Source of the DNA: Rickettsiales bacterium
Lineage (GTDB): Bacteria > Pseudomonadota > Alphaproteobacteria > Rickettsiales > SXRF01
Length of the DNA stretch: 64,000 nt
NCBI GenBank assembly: GCA_005792635.1
Contig: SXRF01000068.1
Location: 180-64,179, forward strand
Direction: 5' to 3'
Part shown: piece by piece, positions 1,973 through 49,547 of the stretch
How the letters are laid out: every line of letters starts with the position of its first letter
Numbering within the stretch: position 1 is the first letter of the stretch
The notes under the pieces: generated by a model
What the model saw: only the letters and a program-made list of their open reading frames with translations
Databases searched by the model: none
Told to the model about the DNA's origin: nothing
Position numbers and translations under genes: made by a program

Positions 1973-2800
1973 ATGGCTCTCAAAAGTTTCAAACCTACAA
2001 CCCCAGCGCAACGCCAGCTAGTTTTGGTTGATCGTAGCGAGCTTTACAAAGGTAAGCCAGTTAAAAAGCTTACTGAAGGCAAAAGCAAATCTGGTGGACG
2101 CAATAACTATGGTCGCCTTACAGCATTCCGCGTGGGTGGTGGTCATAAGCAGTCTTATCGTATCATTGATTTCAAACGCCGTAAGTTTGATGTTGCGGCT
2201 ACTGTTGAACGCTTGGAGTATGATCCAAACCGCACTTCGTTTATCGCTCTTATTAAATATAGCGATGGCGAGCAGGCTTATATCATTGCGCCGCAACGCT
2301 TGGCAGTTGGCGACACGGTTATATCTTCTGAAAAAGCAGATATTAAACCGGGTAACACCATGCCGCTTAAAAATATTCCAGTGGGAACAATTGTTCACAA
2401 TGTGGAGCTAAAAGAAGGTAAGGGCGGTCAGCTTGCTCGCGCTGCTGGGGCTTATGTTCAGTTGGTTGGTAAAGATGGTGGTTACGCACAAGTAAAACTT
2501 CGTTCTGGCGAATTACGCCTTATCCGTTCAGATTGTCTGGCTACCATTGGTGCGGTTTCCAATCCGGACCATCAGAATGCAACCATTGGTAAAGCTGGTC
2601 GCAGCCGTTGGCTTGGTGTTCGCCCATCAGTTCGCGGTGTGGCGATGAACCCAGTTGACCATCCACATGGTGGTGGTGGAGGGCGCACTTCTGGTGGTCG
2701 TCATCCTGTAACACCTTGGGGTAAAGGCACAAAAGGTACAAAAACTCGTTCGAAGAAGAAGGTTAACAAGCTTATTCTTCGTAGCAGACATCAGAAATAG
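1973..2800 (+). CDS. rplB: 50S ribosomal protein L2
   Basis: 275-aa ORF with the GGGHKQSYR and [17 protein letters not shown] motifs. Confidence 0.97.
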
Positions 2801-2945
2801 TGCTAGTGGCTAGTGATTAGTGGCTAGTGATTAGTTGGGTAAAACTTTAAATTATAAGGAGGAGTGGAAAAACGGTTTGGTGAATTTGCTGGTGGTGATG
2901 AATGTTTCTTCACTGACCACTGACCACTGACCACTGACCACTAAA
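2801..2945. repeat. Heptad-periodic inverted-repeat element in the rplB-rpsS spacer
   Basis: The left arm at 2803-2837 reads CTAGTGG CTAGTGA TTAGTGG CTAGTGA TTAGTTG. The right arm at 2911-2945 reads CACTGAC x4 then CACTAAA. The arms are partly complementary through an AGTG/CACT core, and the element begins directly at the rplB stop. Confidence 0.85.
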
Positions 2946-2949
2946 ATCT

Positions 2950-3228
2950 ATGGCTAGATCAGTTTGGAAAGGCCCGTTTGTTGATGGCTATCTGCTTAAA
3001 AAAGCAGAAGTTGCAAAGGCTGCGGCACGAAATCAGGTTATTAAGACTTGGTCGCGTCGTTCAACTATACTTCCGCAATTTGTGGGCTTGACATTTGGCG
3101 TTTATAACGGCAAGAAGTTCATCCCTGTTTCTGTGAATGAAGATATGATCGGGCATAAATTCGGTGAATTTGCGCCAACTCGCACTTTCCACGGTCATAG
3201 TGCAGACAAAAAAGCTGTTAAAAAATAA
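2950..3228 (+). CDS. rpsS: 30S ribosomal protein S19
   Basis: 92-aa ORF with [12 protein letters not shown]...[13 protein letters not shown]. Confidence 0.97.
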
Positions 3229-3237
3229 GGACATAGT

Positions 3238-3618
3238 ATGAGTAAGAAATCAGCAGAACGGGCATTAGCCCCAACGGAAGCAAAGGCGGTTATCAAGCGT
3301 TTGCGCGTTAGTCCGCAAAAACTTAATTTGGTGGCGGGTTTAATTCGCGGCATGTCTGTTGGCGCGGCACTAAATCAGCTTTCATTTTCCAGCAAGCGCA
3401 TTGCAGTTGATGTTAAAAAAGCGTTGCAATCAGCGGTTGCTAATGCTGAAAACAACCATAACCTGAATGTAGATTCTCTTTATGTTAAAGAGGCTTTTGT
3501 TGGTAAGAATTTAGTTATGAAACGCATGCATACCCGTGGTCGTGGTAAGTCGGCTCGTGTATTTAGACCATTCGCAAATTTGACGCTGATTGTGCGTGAG
3601 AAAGAGGAGAAAGCATAA
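3238..3618 (+). CDS. rplV: 50S ribosomal protein L22
   Basis: 126-aa ORF with [16 protein letters not shown], in the expected operon order. Confidence 0.95.
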
Positions 3619-5957: not shown

Positions 5958-6580
5958 TGGCTACTAAAGAAACAAAAGCTAAAAAAGCACCAAAAGCGGA
6001 AGCTGTGGCGACTGGCGATACCAAGCGTGATGCTGGCTATACCCCGCGTTTGCAGGCTTTGTATGAAAAGAGCGTTCGTGCTGATTTGCAAAAAAAATTC
6101 AACTATAAGAATGGAATGCAGATTCCTAAGTTGGATAAAATTGTAATAAATATGGGGGTTGGTGAAACTGTTGCTGATAGCAAAACCATCCAAGCTGCCG
6201 TGAACGAGCTTGGCTTGATTTCTGGTCAAAAAGCAATGATTACTAAATCCAAAAAAGCTATCGCTGGTTTCAAATTGCGTGAAGGAATGCCGATTGGTTG
6301 CAAAGTTACTCTGCGTAAGCAGCGTATGTATGAGTTTTTGGATCGTTTAATCAATACTGCTTTGCCGCGCGTACGCGATTTCCGTGGTGTTCCGCATAAA
6401 AGTTTTGATGGTCGCGGAAATTATGCGCTTGGTTTGAAAGAGCAAATTGTATTTCCAGAAATCAACTATGATAAAATTGACCAAATCCGCGGTATGGATA
6501 TTATCATTTGCAGTACCGCAAAAACTGATGAAGAAGCGAAAGCTTTGCTTTCTGCTCTCAACATGCCTTTTGTTAAATAA
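5957..6580 (+). CDS. rplE: 50S ribosomal protein L5 with Lys/Ala-rich N-terminal extension
   Basis: 207-aa ORF whose start overlaps the rplX stop (TAATG). The uL5 core begins at [11 protein letters not shown], after about 25 extra residues. Confidence 0.94.
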
Positions 6581-22212: not shown

Positions 22213-22855
22213 TTGGCGTTATTTGAATAGGCATGATGGTCGGTTGTATGGCAACTGGCTCGGTTGGTTTGGTTTTTTCGGTAATCGCGCTCAAGCGTTG
22301 CAAATATCGCTCGGCAAGCTCAGCTGTACCGCGCTTCCTTGCGTCTTGCTCGGAAATATAGGTGGAAAAATATTGATTGCTCGGGTTGTTATAGCTGGTG
22401 ACGCTGCTGATTGCGCCGTTATCAATCAATTTTCCGTCGCTAATCCGCGTTAATTTATAGCCAGAATTTATGGTAAGGTTATAGCGCGATGCCGTTCCGT
22501 CCCGCGAAATGCCGATGCCTGTATTGGTTTGCGAGAGCGAAACTTCTAGGCGGTATAAAGGTGCAGTGGTTTTGGTGGAAGGAACGAGCAAATCCTCCAG
22601 ATTTTGTGAGAATTGGCGGGATATTCTATTTGCGGAATTATTGCTGGTGTCGGAACTGGAGGCAAGAACGCTGGTGGTTGAGCCACTGTCGCTTGCGACG
22701 ATGACTACCCCAGCCAGAACAGGAGAATTGGCAGGCAGCGCAGATTTTGTGCCATATACAGGCTGAAAGCCGCAGGAGGAAAAGCAGATTAGGAGTGTGG
22801 AGTATAGAGTGTAGAGTGTAAGAATCCTTATAGGAAAAAACGACTTTTTCCACAC
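22187..22855 (-). CDS. lptE: LPS-assembly lipoprotein LptE
   Basis: Located between leuS and holA. Lipobox ...LLICFSSC followed by GFQPVYG. The maximal ORF starts at the ATG at 22897 inside leuS. A GTG at 22855, with GGAG 6 nt upstream, gives a normal signal peptide (M)WKKSFFPIRILTLYTLYSTLLICFSSC. The start remains ambiguous. Confidence 0.75.
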   Translation of the reverse strand: MWKKSFFPIRILTLYTLYSTLLICFSSCGFQPVYGTKSALPANSPVLAGVVIVASDSGSTTSVLASSSDTSNNSANRISRQFSQNLEDLLVPSTKTTAPLYRLEVSLSQTNTGIGISRDGTASRYNLTINSGYKLTRISDGKLIDNGAISSVTSYNNPSNQYFSTYISEQDARKRGTAELAERYLQRLSAITEKTKPTEPVAIQPTIMPIQITPNENRPQIN

Positions 22856-22878
22856 TCCGCACTCCACACTCCACACTC
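22792..22878. repeat. Heptad-periodic inverted-repeat element spanning the lptE 5' end and the leuS 3' flank
   Basis: Left arm GGAGTGT GGAGTAT AGAGTGT AGAGTGT (22792-22819), an inner mini-hairpin GGAAAAA-ACGAC-TTTTTCC (22833-22851), and right arm CACACTC CGCACTC CACACTC CACACTC (22851-22878). Confidence 0.9.
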
Positions 22879-22880
22879 TT

Positions 22881-25445
22881 CTACGCAACCACGACATTCA
22901 CAATCCTATTCGCTACGACGATTATTTTTTTAATTTCTTTATCTTTTATAGACTCCGCAACATTCGGCAGGGCAAGGGCGGTTTTTTCCAAAATCGCTTT
23001 ATCTTCGTCTTTTTTTGCTTCAAACGCACCGCGCAATTTTCCATTTACTTGTACCGCGATATTCACCGAATCATCAATTAAAAACGCAGCATCGGCAATC
23101 GGAAACGGGCGGTTTGCCAGCTCGTCTTTATTACCCAGTTGCGCCCATAATTCTTCGGCGAGATGCGGCATAAACGGATTTATCAGATGAATTGCGGCAA
23201 TTATTGCCTCATTCCTTGCCGCTGAATTTTCCGCTGTAGGTTTGGTATCCTCAATTAGATTAGTCAGCTCACGAATTCGCGCAATGGCTTTGTTGAAATG
23301 GAATTTTTCCAGATCGTCAGTGACTGCGGCGATGGTTTTGTGGGTCTGGCGAATTAGGGCTTCGGGCTTTGGGCTTTGGGCTTCGGAAGAAATACTTGAA
23401 GCCTGAAGCCTAGAGCCTGAAGCCTCTTGAACTAACCGCCACAGCCGACCGATATACCGCCATGCACCTTCAATCCCTGCATCTGTCCATTCCAGATCGC
23501 GGTCGGGCGGGCTGTCGGAAAGCATGAACAACCGCGCCGCATCCACACCATAAGTCGCGATAATATGGCGCGGGTCAATGGTGTTTTTCTTGGACTTACT
23601 CATTTTCTCAATGCGCCCGACAGTAACAGGTTTGCCAGTTTTTATTTCTACAACCCCTAATCCAGAATTGCTAACCCCTATCTCATCAGGCGACAACCAT
23701 TTGCCTTCCGCGTTTTTATAGGTTTCGTGGGAAATCATCCCCTGCGTTTCAAGGCGTTTGAAGGGTTCTTGCAAATTCAGCAAGCCACATTTGGCGAGGG
23801 CGCGGGTGAAAAAGCGCGAATATAACAAATGCAAAACCGCGTGTTCAATGCCGCCGATATAGCAATCAACGCCGCCAGCCAGCCAATAGTTTAGCGCGGA
23901 TTTTTCCAGCGGGTCTGCGCTTGGCGTGGTTGCGTAACGCAAATAATACCATGACGACTCAAAAAATGTGTCAAATGTATCCGTTTCGCGGGTGGCTGGT
24001 TTTTCGCATTTCGGGCAGTTCACATGCTTCCATGTCGGATGATTGGCCAGCGGATTACCCGCTTTTTCAAAGCTCACATCTTTGGGTAACTCAACAGGAA
24101 GCTGCGCCTCTGGTACAGGCACTGCACCGCACGAAGCGCAATGGATAATCGGAATCGGGCAACCCCAGTAGCGTTGGCGCGAAATGCCCCAATCGCGCAG
24201 ACGATAATTGGTTTTGCCTGAGCCAATTCCGAGTTTTTCTAGCTCGGCGATGGCGCGTTTTTTTGCCTCGTCGACTGACAAGCCATTGAGAAAATCCGAG
24301 TTTATAAGTGCGTCATCATCGCCAACCACTTGCAAAATCGGCAGGTTATATTTAACTGCGAATTCGTGGTCGCGCTCGTCATGCGCTGGGCAACCAAAAA
24401 TCGCGCCAGTGCCATAATCCATCAACACGAAATTGGCGATATATAGTGGCACTTCGCGGTTTTCAAACGGATGTTTGATTTTTAATCCAGTATCAAACCC
24501 TTTTTTCTCGGCTTTTTCTATCGCTTCTTCGGATGTTCCAAGCTTATTACATTCAGCGATGAAAGCAGCGGCTTCTGGGTTATGTGCGGCTATATCTTTG
24601 GCAAGGGGATGACCAGTAGAAATCGCGCAGAAACTCATGCCGAAAAATGTATCAGGTCTTGTCGTATATATGTCTATGCTGCTCTCTATTACAGGCTTGT
24701 CAGGTTTGGCGCAAAGAACTTTGAGCGTGACAACAGCTCCCTGCGATTTTCCAATCCATTTTTCCTGCATTAGGCGGACTTTTTCTGGCCATTCTTTTAA
24801 GCCGTCTAGCCCTGCGAGTAAATCCTCGGCGAAATCAGAAATCCGCAAAAACCACTGCGATAATTTGCGGCGTTCCACCAGCGCACCGCTGCGCCAGCCG
24901 CGCCCGTCAATTACTTGCTCATTGGCAAGCACCGTGTTGTCCACAGGATCCCAGTTGACTTCCGCCTCTTTGCGATATGCTAAGCCATTTTCCAGAAATT
25001 TTAGGAAAAATTTTTGCTCGTGCTTGTAATAATCAGGAAGGCAAGTTGCCAGCTCACGCGACCAATCATAAGACAGTCCTATGAGTTTTAGTTGCTCGCG
25101 CATGGTTTCAATATTCGCCAGCGTCCATGTTTCTGGGTGCGAATTATTTTGAATCGCTGCGTTTTCCGCGGGCAAGCCGAACGCGTCCCAACCCATGGGG
25201 TGCAGGACATTAAACCCCTGCGCTCGCTTGCTTCGTGCCACTACATCGCCGAGCGTGTAATTTCGCACATGCCCCATGTGGATATTTCCAGACGGGTAGG
25301 GGAACATTTCCAGCACGAAGTATTTCGGCTTCTCGCTGTTAATGCTGGCGGCGAAGCTGTTGTTTTTTGCCCAGCGCTGTTGCCACTTGGCTTCAGTTTC
25401 GCGGAAGTTGTAGCGGGTGTTTTCTGTGGTTTTTGGTTCGGTCAT
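22881..25445 (-). CDS. leuS: Leucine--tRNA ligase
   Basis: 854-aa ORF with the HMGH motif (PYPSGNIHMGHVRNY), KMSKS and the CP1 editing domain. Confidence 0.97.
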   Translation of the reverse strand: MTEPKTTENTRYNFRETEAKWQQRWAKNNSFAASINSEKPKYFVLEMFPYPSGNIHMGHVRNYTLGDVVARSKRAQGFNVLHPMGWDAFGLPAENAAIQNNSHPETWTLANIETMREQLKLIGLSYDWSRELATCLPDYYKHEQKFFLKFLENGLAYRKEAEVNWDPVDNTVLANEQVIDGRGWRSGALVERRKLSQWFLRISDFAEDLLAGLDGLKEWPEKVRLMQEKWIGKSQGAVVTLKVLCAKPDKPVIESSIDIYTTRPDTFFGMSFCAISTGHPLAKDIAAHNPEAAAFIAECNKLGTSEEAIEKAEKKGFDTGLKIKHPFENREVPLYIANFVLMDYGTGAIFGCPAHDERDHEFAVKYNLPILQVVGDDDALINSDFLNGLSVDEAKKRAIAELEKLGIGSGKTNYRLRDWGISRQRYWGCPIPIIHCASCGAVPVPEAQLPVELPKDVSFEKAGNPLANHPTWKHVNCPKCEKPATRETDTFDTFFESSWYYLRYATTPSADPLEKSALNYWLAGGVDCYIGGIEHAVLHLLYSRFFTRALAKCGLLNLQEPFKRLETQGMISHETYKNAEGKWLSPDEIGVSNSGLGVVEIKTGKPVTVGRIEKMSKSKKNTIDPRHIIATYGVDAARLFMLSDSPPDRDLEWTDAGIEGAWRYIGRLWRLVQEASGSRLQASSISSEAQSPKPEALIRQTHKTIAAVTDDLEKFHFNKAIARIRELTNLIEDTKPTAENSAARNEAIIAAIHLINPFMPHLAEELWAQLGNKDELANRPFPIADAAFLIDDSVNIAVQVNGKLRGAFEAKKDEDKAILEKTALALPNVAESIKDKEIKKIIVVANRIVNVVVA
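23358..23425. repeat. Heptad-periodic inverted repeat inside the leuS coding sequence
   Basis: GGGCTTC GGGCTTT GGGCTTT GGGCTTC, loop, GAAGCCT GAAGCCT AGAGCCT GAAGCCT. On the minus strand it is translated as ...EASGSRLQASSISSEAQSPKPEA.... Confidence 0.9.
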
Positions 25446-25454
25446 AGCGTTGTT

Positions 25455-25520
25455 GTGTCGGTGTCGGTGCTAGTGTAGGTAAGTAAATACTACCGACACC
25501 GATCACCGACACTGACACTA
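25455..25520. repeat. Short-period (6-7 nt) inverted-repeat element between the leuS start and the upstream lipoprotein gene stop
   Basis: Left GTGTCGGTGTCGGTGCTAGTGTAGGTAAG, right TACCGACACCGATCACCGACACTGACACTA. It ends at the stop codon of the 25518-26024 gene. Confidence 0.8.
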
Positions 25521-27738: not shown

Positions 27739-28416
27739 ATGTTGAATATAAAAGATAAATTGCAAAAAATTGCGGATGATATAGAAAAGGCGAGGGGGGC
27801 TTCGCCCATTGCTGCGCCAGCCGTTACTATACTTGCTGCCAGTAAATCGCAGTCCGCCCTATATATAGAAGAGGCGATTGCGGCGGGCATCACCGATTTT
27901 GGCGAAAACCGCGTGCAAGAAGCGGCGGAAAAGTGGGGGCAGGGCGGCTTGCGGGAAAAATATCCGCATATAAAACTACATCTAATAGGGGCATTGCAAA
28001 CTAATAAAGTGAAGCAGGCACTAGCACTTTTTGATGTTATTCAGAGTGTGGATAGCCCAAAGTTAGCAGAGGCTTTGAGTAAGCACTACACTTCACACTC
28101 CACACTCCGCACTCGTTCTTTCTATATCCAAATCAACACTGGCGAAGAGCCGCAGAAATCAGGGATTTTTCCCGCGCAGGCGGATGAATTCATAAAATAT
28201 TGTGTGGACGAGTTGCAATTGCCAGTTGTTGGGCTGATGTGTGTCCCGCCCGCTGATCAGCCGCCCGCGCCGCATTTTGCTTTGCTGCGTGAAATCGCCA
28301 AGCGGAATAATCTGCGCGAGCTTAGCATGGGCATGAGCGGCGATTACGAAGTGGCGGTGCGGATGGGCGCGAGCTGCGTTCGTGTTGGGACGGCGTTGTT
28401 TGGTGAGCGCGCATAG
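27739..28416 (+). CDS. yggS: PLP-homeostasis protein YggS (COG0325)
   Basis: MLNIKDKLQKIADDIEKA... LAASKSQS ... GENRVQE ... HLIGALQTNKVK ... ELSMGMSGDYEVAVRMGASCVRVGTALFG. The ORF-track start at 27640 is an upstream extension. Confidence 0.88.
   Translation: MLNIKDKLQKIADDIEKARGASPIAAPAVTILAASKSQSALYIEEAIAAGITDFGENRVQEAAEKWGQGGLREKYPHIKLHLIGALQTNKVKQALALFDVIQSVDSPKLAEALSKHYTSHSTLRTRSFYIQINTGEEPQKSGIFPAQADEFIKYCVDELQLPVVGLMCVPPADQPPAPHFALLREIAKRNNLRELSMGMSGDYEVAVRMGASCVRVGTALFGERA
28084..28114. repeat. CACACTC-type heptad array inside the yggS coding sequence
   Basis: ...CACACTC CACACTC CGCACTC, sharing the 14-nt string CACACTCCGCACTC with 22851-22864. It is translated as KHYTSHSTLRTR. Confidence 0.8.
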
Positions 28417-33470: not shown

Positions 33471-36400
33471 ATGTCAGCTATCAAAATGAGAATTCGCAGC
33501 AAACTAACTTTACTCTTACTTGGTTTTGGTGCGTTACCGCTTGGGGCGGCGATGCCTGTAGTGTTTAACAAGCTGGCTGATATGCAGCAGTCAGCTCTTG
33601 ATGACATGAAAAATACTGCGGCTAGCGTTGCCGAGCTGGTTGATCGCAATTTATTTGAACGCTATGGCGATGTTCAGGCATTTACCACCAACGCCGCCGC
33701 AAAGGATGTTGCAAATTGGTATAAAGCCTCTGGGACACCTCTGGTTAGCTCTATGAATGCGTATATGACCAATTATGGGCTGTATAAGCTTATGATTGTT
33801 GTTGATATGGATGGTAAAGTTGCCGCTGTCAATTCTGTTGATAATAAAGGCAAAGAACTCAATACCTCTGCGCTTTATAGCAAAAATTTCAAGGATGCTG
33901 GATGGTTTCAAAAAGCTGTACGCAAAGAATTTACCAAAAGTGAGACGCTGGATGGTACGGTTATTGAACAACCACATTATGACGCAAATGTGTCAGAGGC
34001 ATATAAGGGGGAAGACGGCTATAGTATTACTTTCTCCGCACCAATTTATGACCATAGTGGAAAAATGATTGGCGTTTGGGCGAATTTCGCTGACTTTGGC
34101 TTGGTGGAAGACATTGTAAAAAGCGTATATGCGCAGAAAAAAGCAAGCGGTTCAGAGGCAATAGCTTTTGCGATTGGAGATGAAAAAGGAATTGCGCTGC
34201 TTAATTATGACCCAGCTCTGGGTGCGGAGACGGAGCGTCGTAATCCTGCGAATATTGGCAAGCAAACGCTAGCTAGTCTTGATATTCCTGCTTCCGTGGA
34301 TGCTGTGAAAGCTGAATCTGGAACTGTTATAGAAACAGACAAAAATAGCGGCGAAAAAGACGCGGCTAGTTGGTCAAAAAGCAAAGGCATACTCGGTATG
34401 CCTAGCCTCGGCTGGACGGTGATTATGCATCAGCCAGCGGATCATGCCTTTGCAGGAATTTATAGCGCGAAGAATACACTATATACCATCATGGGCGTGG
34501 CGTTAATCACAATTCTTGGTGTTGGCTCATTCATTGGAACGCTTGCTAGCCGCCCACTTCGCAAATCAAAAGACGCGATGCAGGCAATTGTGCAGGGCGA
34601 CTATACAACGGTTGTTGAGGGTGAGGATAGCGGTGATGAGATGGGCGAATTAGCGCAGTCTATGAACCAGCTTAAATCTACGCTGGACACCAATACTCGC
34701 CTGAAACAAGCTCTTGATAGTGTTAGCAGTAATGTGATGATGGCGGATGAAAATTTCAATATCATCTATTTGAATGAATCGGTTTCTTCGTTCCTGCGTG
34801 AAGCGGAGAAGGATATTCAGAAAGACCTTCCGCGCTTTTCGGTGGCAAATTTAATGGGTGCGAATATTGATATTTTCCACAAAAATCCATCGCATCAACG
34901 CAACATGTTGGCGGCGATGAGTACGACAACAAAAACCTCAATTCAGGTTGGTGGGCGTTCTTTTGATTTGGTGGCTGTGCCGTTGTTTGATCAAAATAAA
35001 AAGCGCATCGGTACAACTGTTGAGTGGCTTGATGGCGCGGCTGCGGGCATGGTGAATGCTATCAATAAATCGCAAGCGGTTATTGAGTTCCAAGTTGATG
35101 GTACGATTATAAATGCCAACGAAAATTTCCTAGGCGCGTTGGGTTATAGCTTGGATGAAATTAGAGGCAAGCATCACTCAATGTTTGTTGATCCGACTTA
35201 TAAGAATTCGCCAGAATATCGTCAATTCTGGGAGGCTTTGGGGCGTGGTGAAGCACAGACAGCAGAGTTCAAACGCATTGCCAAAGGTGGGCGGGAAATC
35301 TGGATTCAAGCTTCTTACAACCCAATTGCCGACCTTAAAGGGCGTATTGTACGGGTGGTAAAAACCGCAACCGATATTACGCAGATGGTAACTACGCGGA
35401 TTGAAAACGAGGCGGGTATGCGCGAGGCAGTGCATGTATTGACCGAGATTTCAAATGGCAATCTCGCGCTTTCAATGACTGGCGATTATAAAGGCACATT
35501 CTCTGACATTAAAAAAGCGGTGAATGCGACGGTTGAAAAACTGATTGAAATGGTGAACCGCATTAAGGAATCAGCGCAGTCAGTAAGTTCAGCTTCCAAT
35601 GAAATCAGTGCGGGCAGCAGCGATTTGTCGCAGCGCACCGAGCAGCAAGCTTCTTCTCTGGAAGAAACCGCGGCTTCTATGGAAGAAATCACAGGTACAG
35701 TTCGCGCCAACACTGAAAACGCGAAAAATGCCAATACGCTTTCAGCGGAAGCTAGCGATGTAGCGCAGCGCGGTGGGAAAGTGGCGGAAGATGCGGTTGG
35801 TGCGATGAAAAATATTGAAAAATCTTCGCAGAAGATTTCCGATATTATCAGCGTGATTGACGAAATCGCTTTCCAAACCAATTTGCTTGCTCTGAATGCT
35901 GCGGTTGAGGCGGCTCGTGCTGGTGAGGCTGGAAAAGGCTTTGCGGTGGTGGCTTCCGAAGTTCGCTCGCTGGCGGGTCGTTCGGCTTCTGCTTCCAAGG
36001 AAATTAAAGCCCTGATTATGGAAAGTAACAGCCAAGTTAAAACTGGTGCTGAGCTGGTGAACCAAGCTGGTGACACGCTGAAAGACATTGTGGCATCGGT
36101 GAGAAAAGTTTCGGAAATTATTTCGGAAATAGCAGCAGCCAGCGTTGAGCAGTCAACAGGTATTGACGAAATCAATTCGGCAATCTCGCAAATGGACGAA
36201 GTGACACAGCAAAACGCCGCGCTGGTGGAAGAAAACACCGCTGCTGCACAGTCGCTAGTGCATCAGGCGCAGGAGTTGGATGCAATGATGAAATTCTTCA
36301 AAGTTAGCGAAGAAGATAGCTCGTCATCTGCACCACGCTCTCACTCGTCGCACCACGCTCCTGAACTAGTGGTGGCGAAGAAAGCACCAACAGCGGCGCG

Positions 36401-36476
36401 GCCTGTTCCTAAAAAGCCAGTGGTTGCCAAACCAGCTGCGAAAACAGGTACTGACCGCGAGTGGGAGGAATTCTAG
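33471..36476 (+). CDS. Methyl-accepting chemotaxis protein (2 TM, periplasmic Cache-like domain, HAMP, two PAS, MA domain, C-terminal EWEEF)
   Basis: 1001 aa. The signalling hairpin is [40 protein letters not shown]-like segments occur around [16 protein letters not shown] and [17 protein letters not shown]. The C-terminus ends ...DREWEEF. Confidence 0.93.
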
Positions 36477-36592
36477 TAGTGATGTTTGAGGACTAGAGGA
36501 TTAGAGAAATAGAGAATTCAATTCTTTTGTTTTTCTAGTCCTCTAATCCTCTAGTTTTCTAGTTCTCCAATCATCTAATAATCCAATTATCC
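36474..36592. repeat. Heptad-periodic inverted-repeat element in the mcp-cheR spacer
   Basis: TAGTAGT GATGTTT GAGGACT AGAGGAT TAGAGAA ATAGAGA ... TAGTCCT CTAATCC TCTAGTT TTCTAGT. The segment 36492-36506 (ACTAGAGGATTAGAG) is perfectly complementary to 36541-36555. Confidence 0.9.
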
Positions 36593-36594
36593 AT

Positions 36595-37416
36595 ATGCCA
36601 ACACCACAAGCAAACGACAGAGAATTTGACTTCACGCAGAGGGATTTCCAGTTTATTTCCAAGCTGGTGCATCAGCGCATCGGCATTGTGCTGAAGGAAA
36701 ATAAATTTGACATGGTTTATTCGCGGATGGCGCGGCGGTTGCGCGTGCTTAATTTGCGAAGTGTGGCTGATTATCTTGATTTCCTACAAAGTGATGCTGG
36801 CGCGGATGAAATGGGTAATATGGTGAATGCGATTACCACTAACCTCACCAGTTTTTTCCGCGAGCCACATCATTTTGAGCATCTGGCAAAACATGTATTT
36901 ACGCCATTTGCCAAGTCGGGCGAAAGCCGCCTTAGGATTTGGTCGGCGGGCTGTTCGGCTGGCGCAGAGCCATATAGCATCGCTATGACTATGATGGAGG
37001 CGATTCCTGATTTTGCCCGCAGGGATTGTAAAATACTTGCCACCGATATTGACACTAACATGGTGGAAAAAGGCAGAAACGGAATTTATGACGAAGATTG
37101 GATAGATAAAATCCCAGCCAATTTGCGCGTGAAATATGTGGAAGGCAACCAAATAGGCGCGAAAGCCAAATCTCTCATTACCTTTAAGCCGCTAAATTTG
37201 TTGGATGGTTGGCCGATGAGCGGAAAGTTTGACGCGATATTTTGCCGCAATGTGGTGATTTATTTTGACAAAGAAACGCAAGCTCCTCTGTTCTCGCGCT
37301 ATGCGGATATGCTTAAACCAAATGGATATTTATATATCGGGCATTCGGAAAATTTGAATGGCGTTTGCGATCGTTTTAAGCTGGTGGACAAAACTACATA
37401 TCAGAGGATTAAGTAG
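36595..37416 (+). CDS. cheR: Chemotaxis protein methyltransferase CheR
   Basis: 273 aa with TTNLTSFFREPHHFE, RIWSAGCSAGAEPYSIAM and FCRNVVIYFD. Confidence 0.95.
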   Translation: MPTPQANDREFDFTQRDFQFISKLVHQRIGIVLKENKFDMVYSRMARRLRVLNLRSVADYLDFLQSDAGADEMGNMVNAITTNLTSFFREPHHFEHLAKHVFTPFAKSGESRLRIWSAGCSAGAEPYSIAMTMMEAIPDFARRDCKILATDIDTNMVEKGRNGIYDEDWIDKIPANLRVKYVEGNQIGAKAKSLITFKPLNLLDGWPMSGKFDAIFCRNVVIYFDKETQAPLFSRYADMLKPNGYLYIGHSENLNGVCDRFKLVDKTTYQRIK

Positions 37417-47351: not shown

Positions 47352-49547
47352 TTACGCCATAAACTCTGGCAGCCAGCTTTCATTAGTAGCTTTTAGTTGT
47401 TCAACTGATATTTTGTCGTCGCCAATAGTCAGTTGACTGACTTGCGTTTTCCCGATTAGGTAGGCTGGCACATTTATCGCTTTTGCCGCCGCTAGAATAT
47501 CCGCGCTGTTTCTTGCAGTGATTATATAGCGAGCTTGATCTTCACCGAACCAGAACCCAGCATCACCAATCGCTGTAATATCCGCGCCAATCCCATTTCT
47601 ATAAGTCATTTCGGCGATGGCAACTAGCAGCCCACCGTCGGAAATATCATGACAAGCGGTGATTTTTCCGCCCTCAATCATTGAGCGCACAAAATCGCCA
47701 TTGGCTTTTTCCGCCTGCAAATCAACTGTTGGTGGTAAGCCTTCTTCGCGTCCCAAAATCTCGCGCAGATATAACGAAGCTCCCAGATGTTCTTTGGTTT
47801 CACCAATCAGGATAATATCCTCACCAGCCGCCAGAAAACTATTACCCACGCGCTTGTTCACATCGCGCAAAATGCCAACACCGCCGATGGCTGGGGTGGG
47901 TTGAATGGCTGTGCCGCTGGTTTCGTTATATAGCGACACATTGCCCGAAATAATCGGGTAATTGAGTGCGCGGCAAGCCTCGCCCATACCCTGCAATGCG
48001 CCAACGATTTGCCCCATTATTTCGGGTTTTTCTGGGTTGCCGAAATTCAGGCAGTTGGTGATGGCAAGCGGCGTTGCGCCCACGGCGGTTAAATTCCGCC
48101 AAGTTTCGGCAACTGCTTGCTTTCCGCCCTCCACAGGGTCGGCGTAGCAATAGCGCGGTGTGCAGTCGGTGGTTATTGCCAATGCCTTATTCGTGCCATG
48201 CACGCGCACCACCGCAGCATCCCCACCACTTCGTGCCACAGTGTCATTGCCAACTTGGCTGTCATATTGTTCGTATATCCAGCGTTTGGAGCTTAAATCT
48301 GGAGACTTGAGCAGAGTGTGGAGTGTAGAGTGTAGAGTGTGGTGAGCAGGTAATTCAACACTCGTAACGAAGCACTCTACACTCCTCTTAATTTCATACG
48401 GTCGGTCGTAAATCGGAGCATCCGTTGAAACTGGCGCGATTGGCATATCAGCGACTACTTCGCCGTGCATTTTCAGCACGATATGCCCAGTATCGGTGAT
48501 TTTACCGATGGTGGCGAATGACAACTCCCATTTCTCAAACACAGCGCGGGCGATATGTTCTTTTTCTGGCTTAATCACCATCAGCATGCGCTCCTGCGAT
48601 TCTGAAAGCATGATTTCGTAAGGTGTCATGCCCACTTCGCGCATCGGCACTTTGTCCAAATCCATCTCAATTCCCGTGCCGCCTTTACCCGCCATTTCAA
48701 GGGATGAGGAGGTTAAGCCCGCCGCGCCCATGTCCTGAATGGCAAGGATGGTGTCAGTTTGCATGAGTTCAAGGCAAGCTTCAATGAGTAATTTTTCCGT
48801 AAAAGGATCTCCAACCTGCACAGTCGGGCGTTTTTCTTCGGAGTTTTCGCCGAATTCCGCTGAAGCCATCGTCGCGCCGTGGATGCCGTCGCGCCCTGTT
48901 TTGCTGCCGACATACACCACGCTGTTGCCAACGCCCGCCGCCGCCGAATAGAAGATTTTGTCTTGGTCAGCGATGCCAACGGTCATAGCATTGACGAGGA
49001 TATTGCCGTTATATGACGAGTGAAAATTGCACTCGCCGCCAACAGTGGGAACACCAACGCAGTTGCCATAGCCGCCGATGCCCGCCACCACGCCAGAAAG
49101 CAAATGTTTGGTTTTGGGGTGCGAAGGGTCGCCAAAGCGCAGCGCGTTCATATTCGCAATCGGACGCGCGCCCATGGTGAACACATCGTGCAGAATTCCG
49201 CCAACACCTGTGGCAGCACCCTGATATGGCTCAATGTAAGATGGGTGGTTGTGCGATTCCATTTTGAAAATCGCCGCTTGCCCGTCGCCAATGTCTATCA
49301 CGCCCGCGTTTTCCCCCGGCCCGCAGATGACCCAAGGTGCGCTGGTTGGCAAGTCGCGTAAGTGTTTGCGCGTGGTTTTATAAGAGCAATGCTCGCTCCA
49401 CATAACCGAGAAAATCCCCAGCTCCACCATGTTCGGCTCACGCCCCATGATTTTCAGCACGCGGGCATATTCATCAGGCGATAAGCCATGTTCAGCCACG
49501 ATTTGCGGGGTTATTTTTGATTCTATTCTTTGTGCAGCTTGGTTCAT
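47352..49547 (-). CDS. purL: Phosphoribosylformylglycinamidine synthase subunit PurL
   Basis: [21 protein letters not shown] and DCLNFGNPE-like motifs. The ATG at 49547 ([22 protein letters not shown]) is preferred over the TTG at 49598 used by the ORF track. Confidence 0.95.
48314..48386. repeat. GAGTGT-type heptad inverted repeat inside the purL coding sequence
   Basis: GAGTGTG GAGTGTA GAGTGTA GAGTGTG (48314-48341), a loop, then CACTCTA CACTCCT (48373-48386). On the minus strand it is translated as ...[17 protein letters not shown].... Confidence 0.88.

What the first reader, a model, noticed from the sequence alone, without database searches (positions are those of the whole stretch)
22792..22878. 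The LptE signal peptide and start region are encoded by a heptad hairpin that abuts the leuS stop
On the minus strand, the right arm (GAGTGTG GAGTGTG GAGTGCG GAGTGTG) provides the candidate SD GGAG and the GTG start at 22855. The loop mini-hairpin encodes KKSFFP. The left arm encodes the hydrophobic core LTLYTLYSTLL immediately before the lipobox CFSSC. The whole export signal of an essential outer-membrane biogenesis lipoprotein is therefore repeat-derived sequence. The element ends 2 nt from the leuS stop codon (22881-22883). The same unit sequence occurs in purL and yggS.
Basis: partly seen in the sequence, partly recalled or inferred. Interest (0 to 1): 0.7.

Follow-up and report, generated by a model that had tools for sequence, protein, structure and literature searches.

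The report
Repeat hairpin translated into LptE signal peptide
A DNA hairpin made of 7-base repeats sits right after the leuS stop codon and is read in frame as most of the throw-away export signal of the essential lipoprotein LptE, and related uncultured bacteria carry differently spelled hairpins at the same spot, always in frame.

Summary
Four GAGTGTG-type heptads (22878-22851) and four TACACTC-type heptads (22820-22793) form a 27-bp stem (RNA -48.7 kcal/mol, z -7.7). The stem starts 2 nt after the leuS TAG and lies inside lptE.

The loop supplies the basic residues next to the hydrophobic core, and the 3' arm supplies most of that core. The start codon is probably not the GTG at 22855. In 32 distinct leuS-lptE junctions from related MAGs:
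- the reading frame from a conserved ATG (22897, overlapping leuS) has no stops;
- that ATG is preceded by AGGA in 30 of 32;
- eight element-free relatives have an 18-residue lipoprotein signal that can only start there;
- all 23 junctions longer than this baseline exceed it by a multiple of 3 (3-72 nt).
So the whole hairpin is translated. The first six codons and the lipobox are not repeat-derived.

The hairpin belongs to a clade-wide class of inverted heptanucleotide arrays: 12 arrays of period 7 in the window and 99 in 278 kb of relatives, against 0-8 for other periods. They lie after stop codons and in permissive coding loops, and their units differ between lineages. The closest known kinds are cyanobacterial and Xanthomonas heptamer arrays and in-frame Rickettsia palindromic elements. 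I rate it a new variant of a known kind. Any function of the hairpin itself is unproven.

The parts
22881..25445 (-). leuS coding sequence (854 aa); stop TAG at 22881-22883
   Evidence: ORF list; tRNA-synthetase Pfam families on the identical gene in L001/L002
22187..22897 (-). lptE coding sequence read from the conserved ATG (236 aa); overlaps leuS by 17 nt
   Evidence: Pfam LptE PF04390 at 27.6 bits against a cutoff of 23; 60 homologues; Cys42 is invariant in alignment A1
22904..22907 (-). Shine-Dalgarno-like AGGA, 6 nt before ATG 22897, formed by the AGG Arg codon of leuS
   Evidence: Sequence; the same AGG(A/G) is present in 30 of 32 related junctions
22895..22897 (-). Most likely lptE start codon (ATG)
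   Evidence: It is the only possible start in 8 element-free relatives. The frame from it is stop-free in 32 of 32 junctions, and every length excess over the 37-nt baseline is a multiple of 3
22850..22878 (-). 5' arm on the mRNA: GAGTGTG GAGTGTG GAGTGCG GAGTGTG G; encodes (R)VWSVECGVW of the n-region
22853..22855 (-).
   Evidence: disfavoured by the frame conservation
22821..22849 (-). Loop. With the two bases on its 5' side it contains the A/T mini-palindrome GGAAAAAGTCGTTTTTTCC (22833-22851). It encodes KKSFFPIRI, the basic residues next to the hydrophobic core
22792..22820 (-). 3' arm on the mRNA: TACACTC TACACTC TATACTC CACACTC C; encodes LTLYTLYSTL, most of the hydrophobic core
22772..22783 (-). 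Lipobox F-S-S-C; the Cys42 codon is 22772-22774; outside the repeat
   Evidence: It aligns with the invariant lipobox Cys and the CGFxPVYG motif of all homologues
23354..23425 (-). Second heptad hairpin (GGCTTCA/GAAGCCC type) inside leuS; encodes part of a variable linker (SGSRLQASSISSEAQSPKPEA)
2798..2945 (+). Heptad hairpin (TAGTGGC / CACTGAC) filling the rplB-rpsS spacer; it begins at the rplB stop codon
13906..13989 (+). Heptad hairpin (GAGTGGC.. / ACTCATC..) filling the rpoA-rplQ spacer; it begins right after the rpoA stop
25446..25517 (-). Hairpin of 6-7-nt units running from the stop of the DUF3576 gene to the leuS ATG
   Evidence: RNA -40.7 kcal/mol, z -6.1
28044..28115 (+). GAGTGTG/CACACTC-type array inside the yggS-like gene, with a short 5' arm and a 4-unit 3' arm; encodes HYTSHSTLRT
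48313..48395 (-). GAGTGTG/CACACTC-type hairpin inside purL; encodes ..[11 protein letters not shown]

Best explanation
The hairpin is one copy of a clade-wide class of inverted heptanucleotide-array elements. They resemble cyanobacterial STRR arrays and Xanthomonas heptamer arrays. In this group of uncultured alphaproteobacteria they sit directly after stop codons and in permissive coding loops.

In this clade lptE starts at an ATG 14 nt upstream of the leuS stop, with an AGGA made by a leuS Arg codon. There is therefore no non-coding spacer, and the post-stop hairpin lies inside the part of lptE that encodes the signal peptide.

It is translated in frame from ATG 22897:
- the 5' arm and the loop become a long, basic n-region (MSWLRRR-VWSVECGVWKKSFFPIR, net +5);
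- the 3' arm becomes most of the hydrophobic core (ILTLYTLYSTL-LICF);
- the lipobox (FSS|C) is ordinary sequence outside the repeat.

Inferred, not shown: the pre-protein is exported by Sec, lipidated at Cys42 and cleaved by signal peptidase II. All repeat-encoded residues would then be discarded and mature LptE would be unchanged. That would explain why an essential gene tolerates the element, and why only in-frame, stop-free versions with basic-then-hydrophobic coding are seen.

The complementarity of the arms most likely comes from how such arrays arise and spread at the DNA level (slippage, template switching or templated patch replacement), not from a need of lptE. Any role of the stem in the mRNA is unproven.
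For: - Anatomy and significance of the hairpin.
- Period 7 stands out. The window has 12 arrays, against 0-1 for periods 5, 6 and 8-12. In 38 related loci (278 kb) there are 99, against 0-8.
- Arrays come as inverted pairs. Of 92 arrays, 47 have a second array within 150 nt; 37 of these are inverted at 5 of 7 or better, and none is a direct match at 6 of 7 or better.
- Eight junctions have the 37-nt baseline between the leuS stop and the Cys codon, with an 18-residue signal starting at the overlapping ATG. One is 6 nt shorter. The other 23 exceed the baseline by 3, 12, 12, 27, 30, 45, 45, 48 (six), 51, 54, 60, 69 (four) and 72 (three) nt, all multiples of 3.
- The lptE frame from that ATG has 0 stops in 32 of 32 junctions. 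AGGA or AGGG precedes it in 30 of 32.
- Heptad units at this site differ between lineages: GAGTGTG, GGTGTCA, GTGGCCA, GCGATAA, AGGCATG, ACAGAGT, AGTTTTG, GGTCAGA plus CCTATTG, and others.
- Every translated version keeps a net-positive n-region (+1 to +7), a 10-21-residue uncharged core with mean hydropathy 1.5-2.7, and a lipobox.
- On a LeuS tree, junctions with and without the element are interspersed. Genomes with a clean junction mostly have no heptad arrays at all in the fetched loci.
- Other arrays begin -7 to +5 nt from an upstream stop codon.
- A relative at about 75% nucleotide identity (L043) has the orthologous GAGTGTG-type element. Its 3' arm (26 of 30 nt identical) is better conserved than its 5' arm (21 of 28), by my count from the sequences.
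Against: - No experiment maps the start codon.
- With the ATG start, the Cys is residue 42. That is beyond the 15-35 range of the PROSITE lipoprotein rule as I recall it. A Cys at position -4 also breaks that pattern.
- GTG 22855 would give a textbook-length 27-residue signal and has a GGAG at good spacing.
- Conservation of the ATG itself is partly forced by the conserved Asn-Val at the LeuS C-terminus.
- The number of truly independent insertions is uncertain, because some length classes may be inherited.
- Post-stop hairpins tend to fold better as sense RNA than as antisense, while leuS-internal ones fold worse. This hints that the stem may matter at the RNA level, which this explanation treats as a by-product.
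Confidence: 0.7

Rival explanations
1. Translation of lptE starts inside the hairpin at GTG 22855, using the GGAG of the third heptad as Shine-Dalgarno. The 5' arm is then an untranslated ribosome-binding region, and the signal peptide is MWKKSFFPIRILTLYTLYSTLLICFSS|C.
For: The GTG is in frame and a GGAG lies 6 nt upstream. The resulting 27-residue leader, with KK at residues 3-4 and Cys at 28, has canonical lipoprotein-signal dimensions, whereas the ATG version puts Cys at 42. Ribosomes terminating at the leuS TAG 26 nt upstream could reinitiate there.
Against: Both the SD and the GTG lie in the 27-bp stem. Element-free relatives can only start at the overlapping ATG. The ATG and its AGGA are retained in the window and in 30 of 32 junctions. 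The 5'-arm region is stop-free in the lptE frame in 32 of 32 junctions, and total insert length is always a multiple of 3. Neither would be required if the 5' arm were untranslated. The G-rich 5' arms of other lineages produce SD-like and GTG strings by composition alone.
Confidence: 0.17
2. The stem is a selected RNA element of the leuS-lptE-holA transcript. It would act as post-stop 'punctuation': protecting the leuS 3' end, serving as an RNase III-type processing site, or setting the ratio of lptE to leuS translation. Its coding use would be secondary. This can coexist with the best explanation.
For: Hairpins occupy the same post-stop position in many lineages despite unrelated sequences. 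Other operon-internal spacers have the layout stop-arm-loop-arm-start, often with no SD before leuS. All 14 intergenic arrays lie between co-directional genes, and none lies in 43 convergent or 29 divergent junctions. Ten post-stop hairpins lean towards sense-strand stability (mean -3.4 kcal/mol; G-U pairs 35 against 19). Thirteen leuS-internal ones are weaker in sense (+9.7; 24 against 77). The two classes differ with Mann-Whitney p = 0.002.
Against: Over all 23 hairpins there is no preference for the sense strand (10 of 23, p = 0.18). The post-stop trend alone is not significant (p = 0.08), and its cases are partly orthologous. Eight relatives, two of them from array-rich genomes (L005, L007), lack the element at this junction. 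Several junction elements have poorly complementary arms (L025, L009, L013). There is no terminator-like tail and no Rfam family match. In the window the stem does not cover the ATG or its SD.
Confidence: 0.3
3. It is a conventional small mobile element (MITE, REP/REPIN or RPE-like) that transposed into the 5' end of lptE.
For: The same heptad unit is found at three loci in 64 kb. In close relatives one unit (GAATCCC) occupies two leuS sites, and a junction array was rewritten to the unit of a nearby array. In-frame palindromic insertions are known from Rickettsia (PMC10969869, which cites Ogata 2000 and 2002).
Against: The three GAGTGTG loci share only the arrays; their loops and flanks are unrelated. 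Inspection of 30 junctions shows no consistent target-site duplication. There is no fixed end motif such as GTAG or CGTC. Units differ widely within one genome. I found no element-length consensus from which copies could derive.
Confidence: 0.1

Closest known systems
Cyanobacterial STRR heptanucleotide arrays and Xanthomonas/Nostoc G-rich heptamer arrays (Mazel 1990 and Mrazek 2007, as cited in PMC4692102; Rehm 2015, PMC4692102)
   Same: Both are tandem 7-nt units, typically about four copies, dispersed over many loci. They are often two convergent arrays that can form a stem-loop (70-75 such pairs per Xanthomonas genome). They tend to sit between the same genes in related genomes while length and sequence vary strongly.
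   Different: Those arrays are described as intergenic and built on one or a few unit sequences per genome. Here the host is an uncultured alphaproteobacterial clade, and many unrelated units coexist. Most arrays in the sampled DNA lie inside reading frames (77 of 92, a sample biased towards leuS). One is translated as a signal peptide.
TAACTGA heptamer repeats of marine Beggiatoaceae, cyanobacteria and Bacteroidetes (MacGregor 2015, PMC4679880)
   Same: Both are heptamer arrays in operon spacers that end within a few nt of the next start codon. Some 3' arms here (CAACTGA, CACTGAC) are one or two changes from TAACTGA. In both, the stop-codon content of a unit limits where it can lie in coding sequence.
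   Different: The Beggiatoa repeats are almost all direct arrays of one unit, with a single inverted case, and are nearly all intergenic. Here the arrays are inverted pairs with varied units and are frequently coding.
Rickettsia palindromic elements (Ogata 2000 and 2002, summarised in PMC10969869)
   Same: Both are palindromic repeats inserted in frame into housekeeping genes of alphaproteobacteria, translated, and tolerated at permissive sites.
   Different: RPEs are 100-150-bp families with a conserved consensus and a conserved encoded peptide. I did not compare the sequence with RPE families.
REP/REPIN elements
   Same: Both are short imperfect palindromes, abundant and located after genes.
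   Different: REPs are not built of tandem units, carry GTAG or CGTC heads, and are extragenic (PMC3733652). None of this holds here.
Overlapping-gene translational coupling (general bacterial knowledge)
   Same: The lptE ATG lies 14 nt upstream of the leuS stop, with its SD inside leuS. This is a classic coupled arrangement.
   Different: A 27-bp stem begins 20 nt after the start codon and must be unwound by every ribosome that terminates on leuS or initiates on lptE.

Membership tests
Heptanucleotide SSR / STRR-type arrays | Tandem head-to-tail units of exactly 7 nt, three or more copies | tested here: met
   TRF finds period 7 with 4.0 and 4.3 copies. Period 7 is over-represented against periods 5-12 in the window and in relatives.
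Heptanucleotide SSR / STRR-type arrays | Many dispersed loci per genome | tested here: met
   There are six period-7 loci (nine arrays at the threshold) in 64 kb, and 92 arrays in about 340 kb of window plus relatives.
Heptanucleotide SSR / STRR-type arrays | Convergent (inverted) array pairs able to form stem-loops, as in Xanthomonas | tested here: met
   37 of 47 neighbouring array pairs are inverted and none is direct. The stem is significant.
Heptanucleotide SSR / STRR-type arrays | Intergenic location | tested here: not met
   This copy, and 77 of 92 arrays in the sample, lie within reading frames.
Heptanucleotide SSR / STRR-type arrays | Shared unit sequence (CCCCAGT, TTGGTCA, CAACAGT, GGGAATC or GGGGATT) | tested here: not met
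   The units here are GAGTGTG and many others. Only loose resemblances such as TCCCGAA or GAATCCC occur in relatives.
Rickettsia palindromic elements | In-frame, translated insertion in a housekeeping gene | tested here: met
   The net insert is 69 nt, the frame is open, and all related inserts are multiples of 3.
Rickettsia palindromic elements | Family consensus of 100-150 bp shared between copies, encoding a conserved peptide | tested here: not met
   The element is 87 nt. The three copies with the same unit share no loop or flank sequence.
MITE | Terminal inverted repeats plus target-site duplication, with copies alignable over their length | tested here: not met
   Inverted arms are present, but no consistent duplication is seen at 30 junctions and copies are not alignable outside the arrays.
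REP/REPIN | A 20-40-nt palindrome with a GTAG or CGTC head, extragenic, with a RAYT transposase in the genome | tested here: inconclusive
   The head motif and extragenic location are not met. Presence of a RAYT gene was not examined.
Intrinsic terminator | GC-rich stem followed by a U-tract | tested here: not met
   No terminator-like site was found at 22792-22878. The sequence after the stem is CUAAUCUGCUUUUCC.
Known structured RNA family (Rfam 15) | A match at gathering score | tested here: not met
   Only one tRNA in the whole window reaches threshold.
Bacterial lipoprotein (SPII) signal peptide | Basic n-region, uncharged hydrophobic core, and a lipobox ending in Cys that aligns with the family's lipidated Cys | tested here: met
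   The n-region has net charge +5 and the uncharged core is 17 residues with mean hydropathy 1.54, followed by FSS|C. Cys42 is invariant and is followed by GFQPVYG. Caveats: Cys at -4 and a 41-residue length fall outside the strict PROSITE-type rule as I recall it. SignalP and LipoP could not be run.
LptE (PF04390) | Pfam match above the gathering score and the leuS-lptE-holA gene context | tested here: met
   27.6 bits against a cutoff of 23. The flanking genes are leuS and a 339-aa gene that I take to be holA from its position only; its sole Pfam match is sub-threshold (DNA_pol3_gamma3, 20.8 bits against a cutoff of 24.4).

The most novel reading that the evidence does not exclude
In this uncultured alphaproteobacterial clade, heptad hairpins are 'site-stable but sequence-fluid'. 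A dedicated, templated DNA-level mechanism repeatedly rewrites hairpins at fixed positions: directly after stop codons, in LeuS surface loops and in the LptE signal peptide. The units it writes are unrelated from one lineage to the next. The post-stop copies act as operon punctuation or translational-coupling devices. On this reading, the export signal of an essential outer-membrane lipoprotein has been rebuilt many times from such hairpins, which makes it a natural mutagenesis series for signal-peptide grammar.
Probability: 0.15. Interest if true: 0.8.

Novelty: new variant of a known kind. Interest (0 to 1): 0.55.

Why it matters
- It is a clear natural case in which most of the working part of an essential protein's export signal (the basic residues beside the core and most of the core itself) is encoded by repeat DNA. 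At least ten different insert lengths and many different repeat units are tolerated at the same spot. This gives a ready-made comparative series on what a lipoprotein signal peptide can tolerate.
- It extends heptanucleotide arrays, known as an intergenic curiosity of cyanobacteria, xanthomonads and Beggiatoaceae, to a clade where they are mostly coding. That links them conceptually to the in-frame palindromes of Rickettsia.
- It corrects gene-start reasoning for this clade. Array-borne GGAG and GTG strings are compositional decoys, and the real start overlaps leuS.
- The replacement of hairpins by unrelated hairpins at orthologous sites in close relatives points to an unknown DNA-level process that merits study.

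Tried and rejected
- An exact look-up of the window's LeuS found nothing. The LptE look-up succeeded and identified the source as MAG GCA_005779685.1, contig SXJK01000044.1.
- Known RNA family: no Rfam match.
- Terminator or promoter at the hairpin: none.
- Classical MITE/RPE reading: rejected. Copies share only the arrays, and no target duplication is seen.
- Contingency locus or phase variation: considered and set aside. A 7-nt change would frameshift an essential gene, every observed length preserves the frame, and four assemblies are identical. Those assemblies are 100% identical over 3.5 kb, so they are one population and say nothing about polymorphism.
- General RNA-level selection: a sense-versus-antisense folding test on 23 hairpins gave no overall sense preference. 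Only a split by position showed a difference, which I treat as exploratory.
- Orientation test for intergenic arrays: 14 of 14 lie between co-directional genes, but many are the same orthologous spacer, so the evidence is weak.
- Literature: no paper combines heptanucleotide repeats with Rickettsiales, or RPEs with signal peptides. Elhai 2008 on small cyanobacterial repeats is not held. PMC2653234 was irrelevant.
- SignalP and LipoP are not available. I used only a simple charge, hydropathy and lipobox tabulation.
Full report
**Observation**

On the minus strand, leuS (22881-25445) ends with TAG at 22883-22881. After two bases come four heptads, GAGTGTG GAGTGTG GAGTGCG GAGTGTG (22878-22851). 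Next is a 29-nt loop that includes most of the mini-palindrome GGAAAAAGTCGTTTTTTCC. Then come four complementary heptads, TACACTC TACACTC TATACTC CACACTC (22820-22793).

The repeat finder gives 27-nt arms that are 85% complementary, and TRF finds both period-7 arrays. The stem folds at -48.7 kcal/mol as RNA (z -7.7) and -25.9 kcal/mol as DNA (z -7.3), with no shuffle doing as well. The 14-mer occurs 11 times in the window against 0.16 expected. The extra sites lie inside a YggS-like gene and inside purL. Four assemblies reproduce the locus exactly. The source is MAG GCA_005779685.1, an uncultured alphaproteobacterium. Its relatives are labelled Rickettsiales, Alphaproteobacteria or Pseudomonadota MAGs.

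**Where lptE starts**

The ORF is LptE: Pfam PF04390 scores above its cutoff, there are 60 homologues, and the Cys followed by GFxPVYG is invariant. I fetched 38 related loci from GTDB genomes and metagenomes, plus two by exact look-up. For each I measured the distance from the leuS stop to the lipobox Cys codon without using any gene call.

- Eight junctions have 37 nt. Their only possible start is an ATG that overlaps the leuS end by 17 nt, giving a textbook 18-residue lipoprotein signal such as MSLRTKIFPLIMLMLLTA|C.
- One junction (L033) is 6 nt shorter than that baseline.
- The other 23 distinct junctions are longer by 3, 12, 12, 27, 30, 45, 45, 48 (six), 51, 54, 60, 69 (four, including the window) and 72 (three) nt. 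Every excess is a multiple of 3.
- In all 32 junctions the frame from that ATG to the Cys has no stop. The +1 frame has stops in 25 of 32.
- In 30 of 32 the leuS Arg codon 7-10 nt upstream is AGG, which creates AGGA or AGGG at ideal spacing. In the window this is AGGA at 22907-22904 and ATG at 22897-22895.

With at least ten different insert lengths, frame preservation by chance has a probability of about 3^-9 or less. So the hairpin is translated as a whole from ATG 22897. They remain possible as a minor second start that would give a more canonical 27-residue leader.

**What each part encodes**

- Codons 1-6 (MSWLRR) are the leuS overlap and the two bases after it.
- The 5' arm gives (R)VWSVECGVW.
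- The loop gives KKSFFPIRI.
- The 3' arm gives LTLYTLYSTL.
- LICFSS|C follows, outside the repeat.

The last charged residue before the core (R24) and K17/K18 come from the loop. Eleven of the 17 uncharged residues before Cys42 come from the 3' arm. The claims about the start codon and about 'the whole signal' are not.

Across all element-bearing lineages the translated hairpin still obeys signal-peptide grammar: net charge +1 to +7, a 10-21-residue uncharged core with mean hydropathy 1.5-2.7, and a lipobox. This is what translation-level filtering predicts. In a relative at about 75% nucleotide identity (L043) the same GAGTGTG-type element is present. By my count from the sequences, its core-encoding 3' arm (26 of 30 nt identical) is better conserved than its 5' arm (21 of 28).

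**What the hairpin is**

It is not a one-off. Period-7 arrays are strongly over-represented. The window has 12, against 0-1 for periods 5, 6 and 8-12. In 278 kb of related loci there are 99, against 0-8. Lineages with a clean junction mostly have no heptad arrays at all in the fetched DNA, although L005 and L007 have arrays elsewhere.

Arrays come in inverted pairs: 37 of 47 neighbouring pairs are inverted and none is direct. In the window the same architecture fills several spacers:
- rplB-rpsS, beginning at the rplB stop;
- rpoA-rplQ, beginning right after the stop;
- the DUF3576 gene to leuS;
- MCP to cheR, with 8-nt units.

It also occurs inside leuS, the yggS-like gene and purL. In relatives the first array typically begins -7 to +5 nt from an upstream stop codon, and the second runs up to the next start codon.

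The units at the leuS-lptE junction differ completely between lineages: GAGTGTG, GGTGTCA, GTGGCCA, GCGATAA, AGGCATG, ACAGAGT, AGTTTTG, and GGTCAGA with CCTATTG, among others. The three GAGTGTG loci in the window share nothing but the arrays. This is therefore not a MITE or RPE family with a consensus. On a LeuS tree, junctions with and without the element are interspersed, which implies repeated gain, loss or replacement.

**Why it is tolerated here**

In this clade leuS and lptE overlap, so a post-stop element necessarily falls in lptE. The first 40 or so residues of LptE form a signal peptide. I infer from the conserved lipobox that signal peptidase II removes it, so mature LptE is untouched. 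That is the simplest reason why an essential gene carries the element, and why only in-frame, stop-free variants with basic-then-hydrophobic coding survive.

The CCTATTG unit is a telling case. It translates cyclically as PIAYCLL. It forms the core of the signal in many relatives, sometimes with no complementary arm at all (L006, L011, L025). Its perfect complement would contain an in-frame TAG.

**Does the stem do anything?**

This is unresolved. Over 23 clear two-array hairpins the sense RNA is no more stable than the antisense, which argues against general RNA-level selection. Split by position, the picture changes:
- thirteen leuS-internal hairpins are weaker in sense (+9.7 kcal/mol; G-U pairs 24 against 77; p = 0.0085);
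- ten post-stop hairpins, including this one (-47.9 against -41.2), lean the other way (p = 0.08);
- the two classes differ (p = 0.002).

All 14 intergenic arrays lie between co-directional genes. These are hints of a role as operon-internal punctuation or a coupling device. The cases are partly orthologous, though, and a strand-specific mutation bias could mimic the pattern. The stem is not a terminator and matches no Rfam family. In the window it begins 20 nt after the ATG, so it should not block initiation. It must still be opened by ribosomes terminating on leuS and by those starting on lptE.

**Dynamics**

Three close relatives (L009, L010, L031) carry hairpins with unrelated units at the same leuS sites and gene junctions. 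One unit (GAATCCC) occupies two sites in L031. In L010 the junction array differs from L009 by 7 changes within 11 nt at unchanged length. That turns it into a regular (AAGCCAT)x3, the unit of a nearby leuS array. This looks like templated patch replacement rather than point mutation or slippage. I know of no described mechanism for it.

**Comparison with what is known**

- Heptamers are the most over-represented long simple repeats in many bacteria, a finding attributed to polymerase slippage (Mrazek 2007, as cited in PMC4679880 and PMC4692102).
- Cyanobacterial STRRs and the Xanthomonas GGGAATC arrays are the closest kin. The latter include 70-75 convergent pairs per genome and vary strongly between sister species at conserved positions (PMC4692102).
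- Beggiatoaceae TAACTGA arrays end next to start codons (PMC4679880), and some 3' arms here are one or two changes from that unit.
- All of those are described as intergenic.
- In-frame translated palindromes are known from Rickettsia (RPEs; PMC10969869), but RPEs are consensus families of 100-150 bp.

The present case combines the two: heptad-array hairpins that are mostly coding, one of them serving as a signal peptide. I found no paper describing this.

**Verdict**

It is a new variant of a known kind and of moderate interest (0.55). The recurrent, always in-frame occupation of one site by unrelated hairpins, and their replacement between close relatives, are the parts most worth following up.

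Noticed in passing
L009, L010, L031 (leuS and flanking junctions; alignment columns 860-1077, 1967-2096, 2266-2419, 2909-2942, 3476-3594): Close relatives carry heptad hairpins with unrelated units at the same sites. One unit (GAATCCC) occupies two leuS sites in L031. The L010 junction array was rewritten, at unchanged length, to the unit of a nearby array. The sites are stable while the sequences are replaced.
   Followed up: partly
window 23354-23425 and the orthologous LeuS linker in L005, L009, L011, L012, L018, L040: The LeuS linker between RLWRLV and THKTIAAV encodes heptad-derived peptides in many lineages with different units. LeuS of L018 carries about five hairpins and is 925 aa, against about 852 aa at baseline.
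   Followed up: partly
23 two-array hairpins in the window and related loci: leuS-internal hairpins fold worse as sense RNA than as antisense (G-U pairs 24 against 77). Post-stop hairpins lean the other way (35 against 19). The classes differ with p = 0.002. This could reflect selection or a strand-specific mutation bias.
   Followed up: partly
window 25446-25517; L005 ~905-975; L007 ~3380-3442; L009 ~3174-3258; L016 ~573-650: The spacer between the DUF3576 gene and leuS is a hairpin running from the stop codon to the leuS ATG. Its 3' arm is C/A-rich and there is no recognisable Shine-Dalgarno sequence.
   Followed up: partly
window 36477-36594: The MCP-cheR spacer holds an analogous hairpin built from 8-nt units (TAGAGAAT / TCTAATCC; RNA -42.8 kcal/mol, z -4.9). 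The period is therefore not strictly 7 everywhere.
   Followed up: partly
P0021 (LptE homologue, residues ~20-50) and L009 ~6380-6410 (lptE-holA spacer): Some relatives carry a different, widespread palindromic element at these junctions. It is seen as the peptide HCERSEAIQ...LPRRLRLLAMT, and as the DNA GTCATCCCGAGCTTGTCGAGGGATC.
   Followed up: no
L006, L011, L025, L008, L009 junctions and many P00xx N-termini: The unit CCTATTG (cyclic translation PIAYCLL) recurs as the hydrophobic core of LptE signals, often without a complementary 5' arm. Its exact complement would place TAG in frame.
   Followed up: partly
window 33471-37416: The organism encodes an MCP with PAS, HAMP and Cache domains and a CheR. 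It is probably motile and chemotactic, unlike classical obligate intracellular Rickettsiales.
   Followed up: no
L043 4465-5068: A terminase large-subunit domain (Terminase_6C) gene lies about 3 kb from lptE in the relative that shares the GAGTGTG-type element.
   Followed up: no
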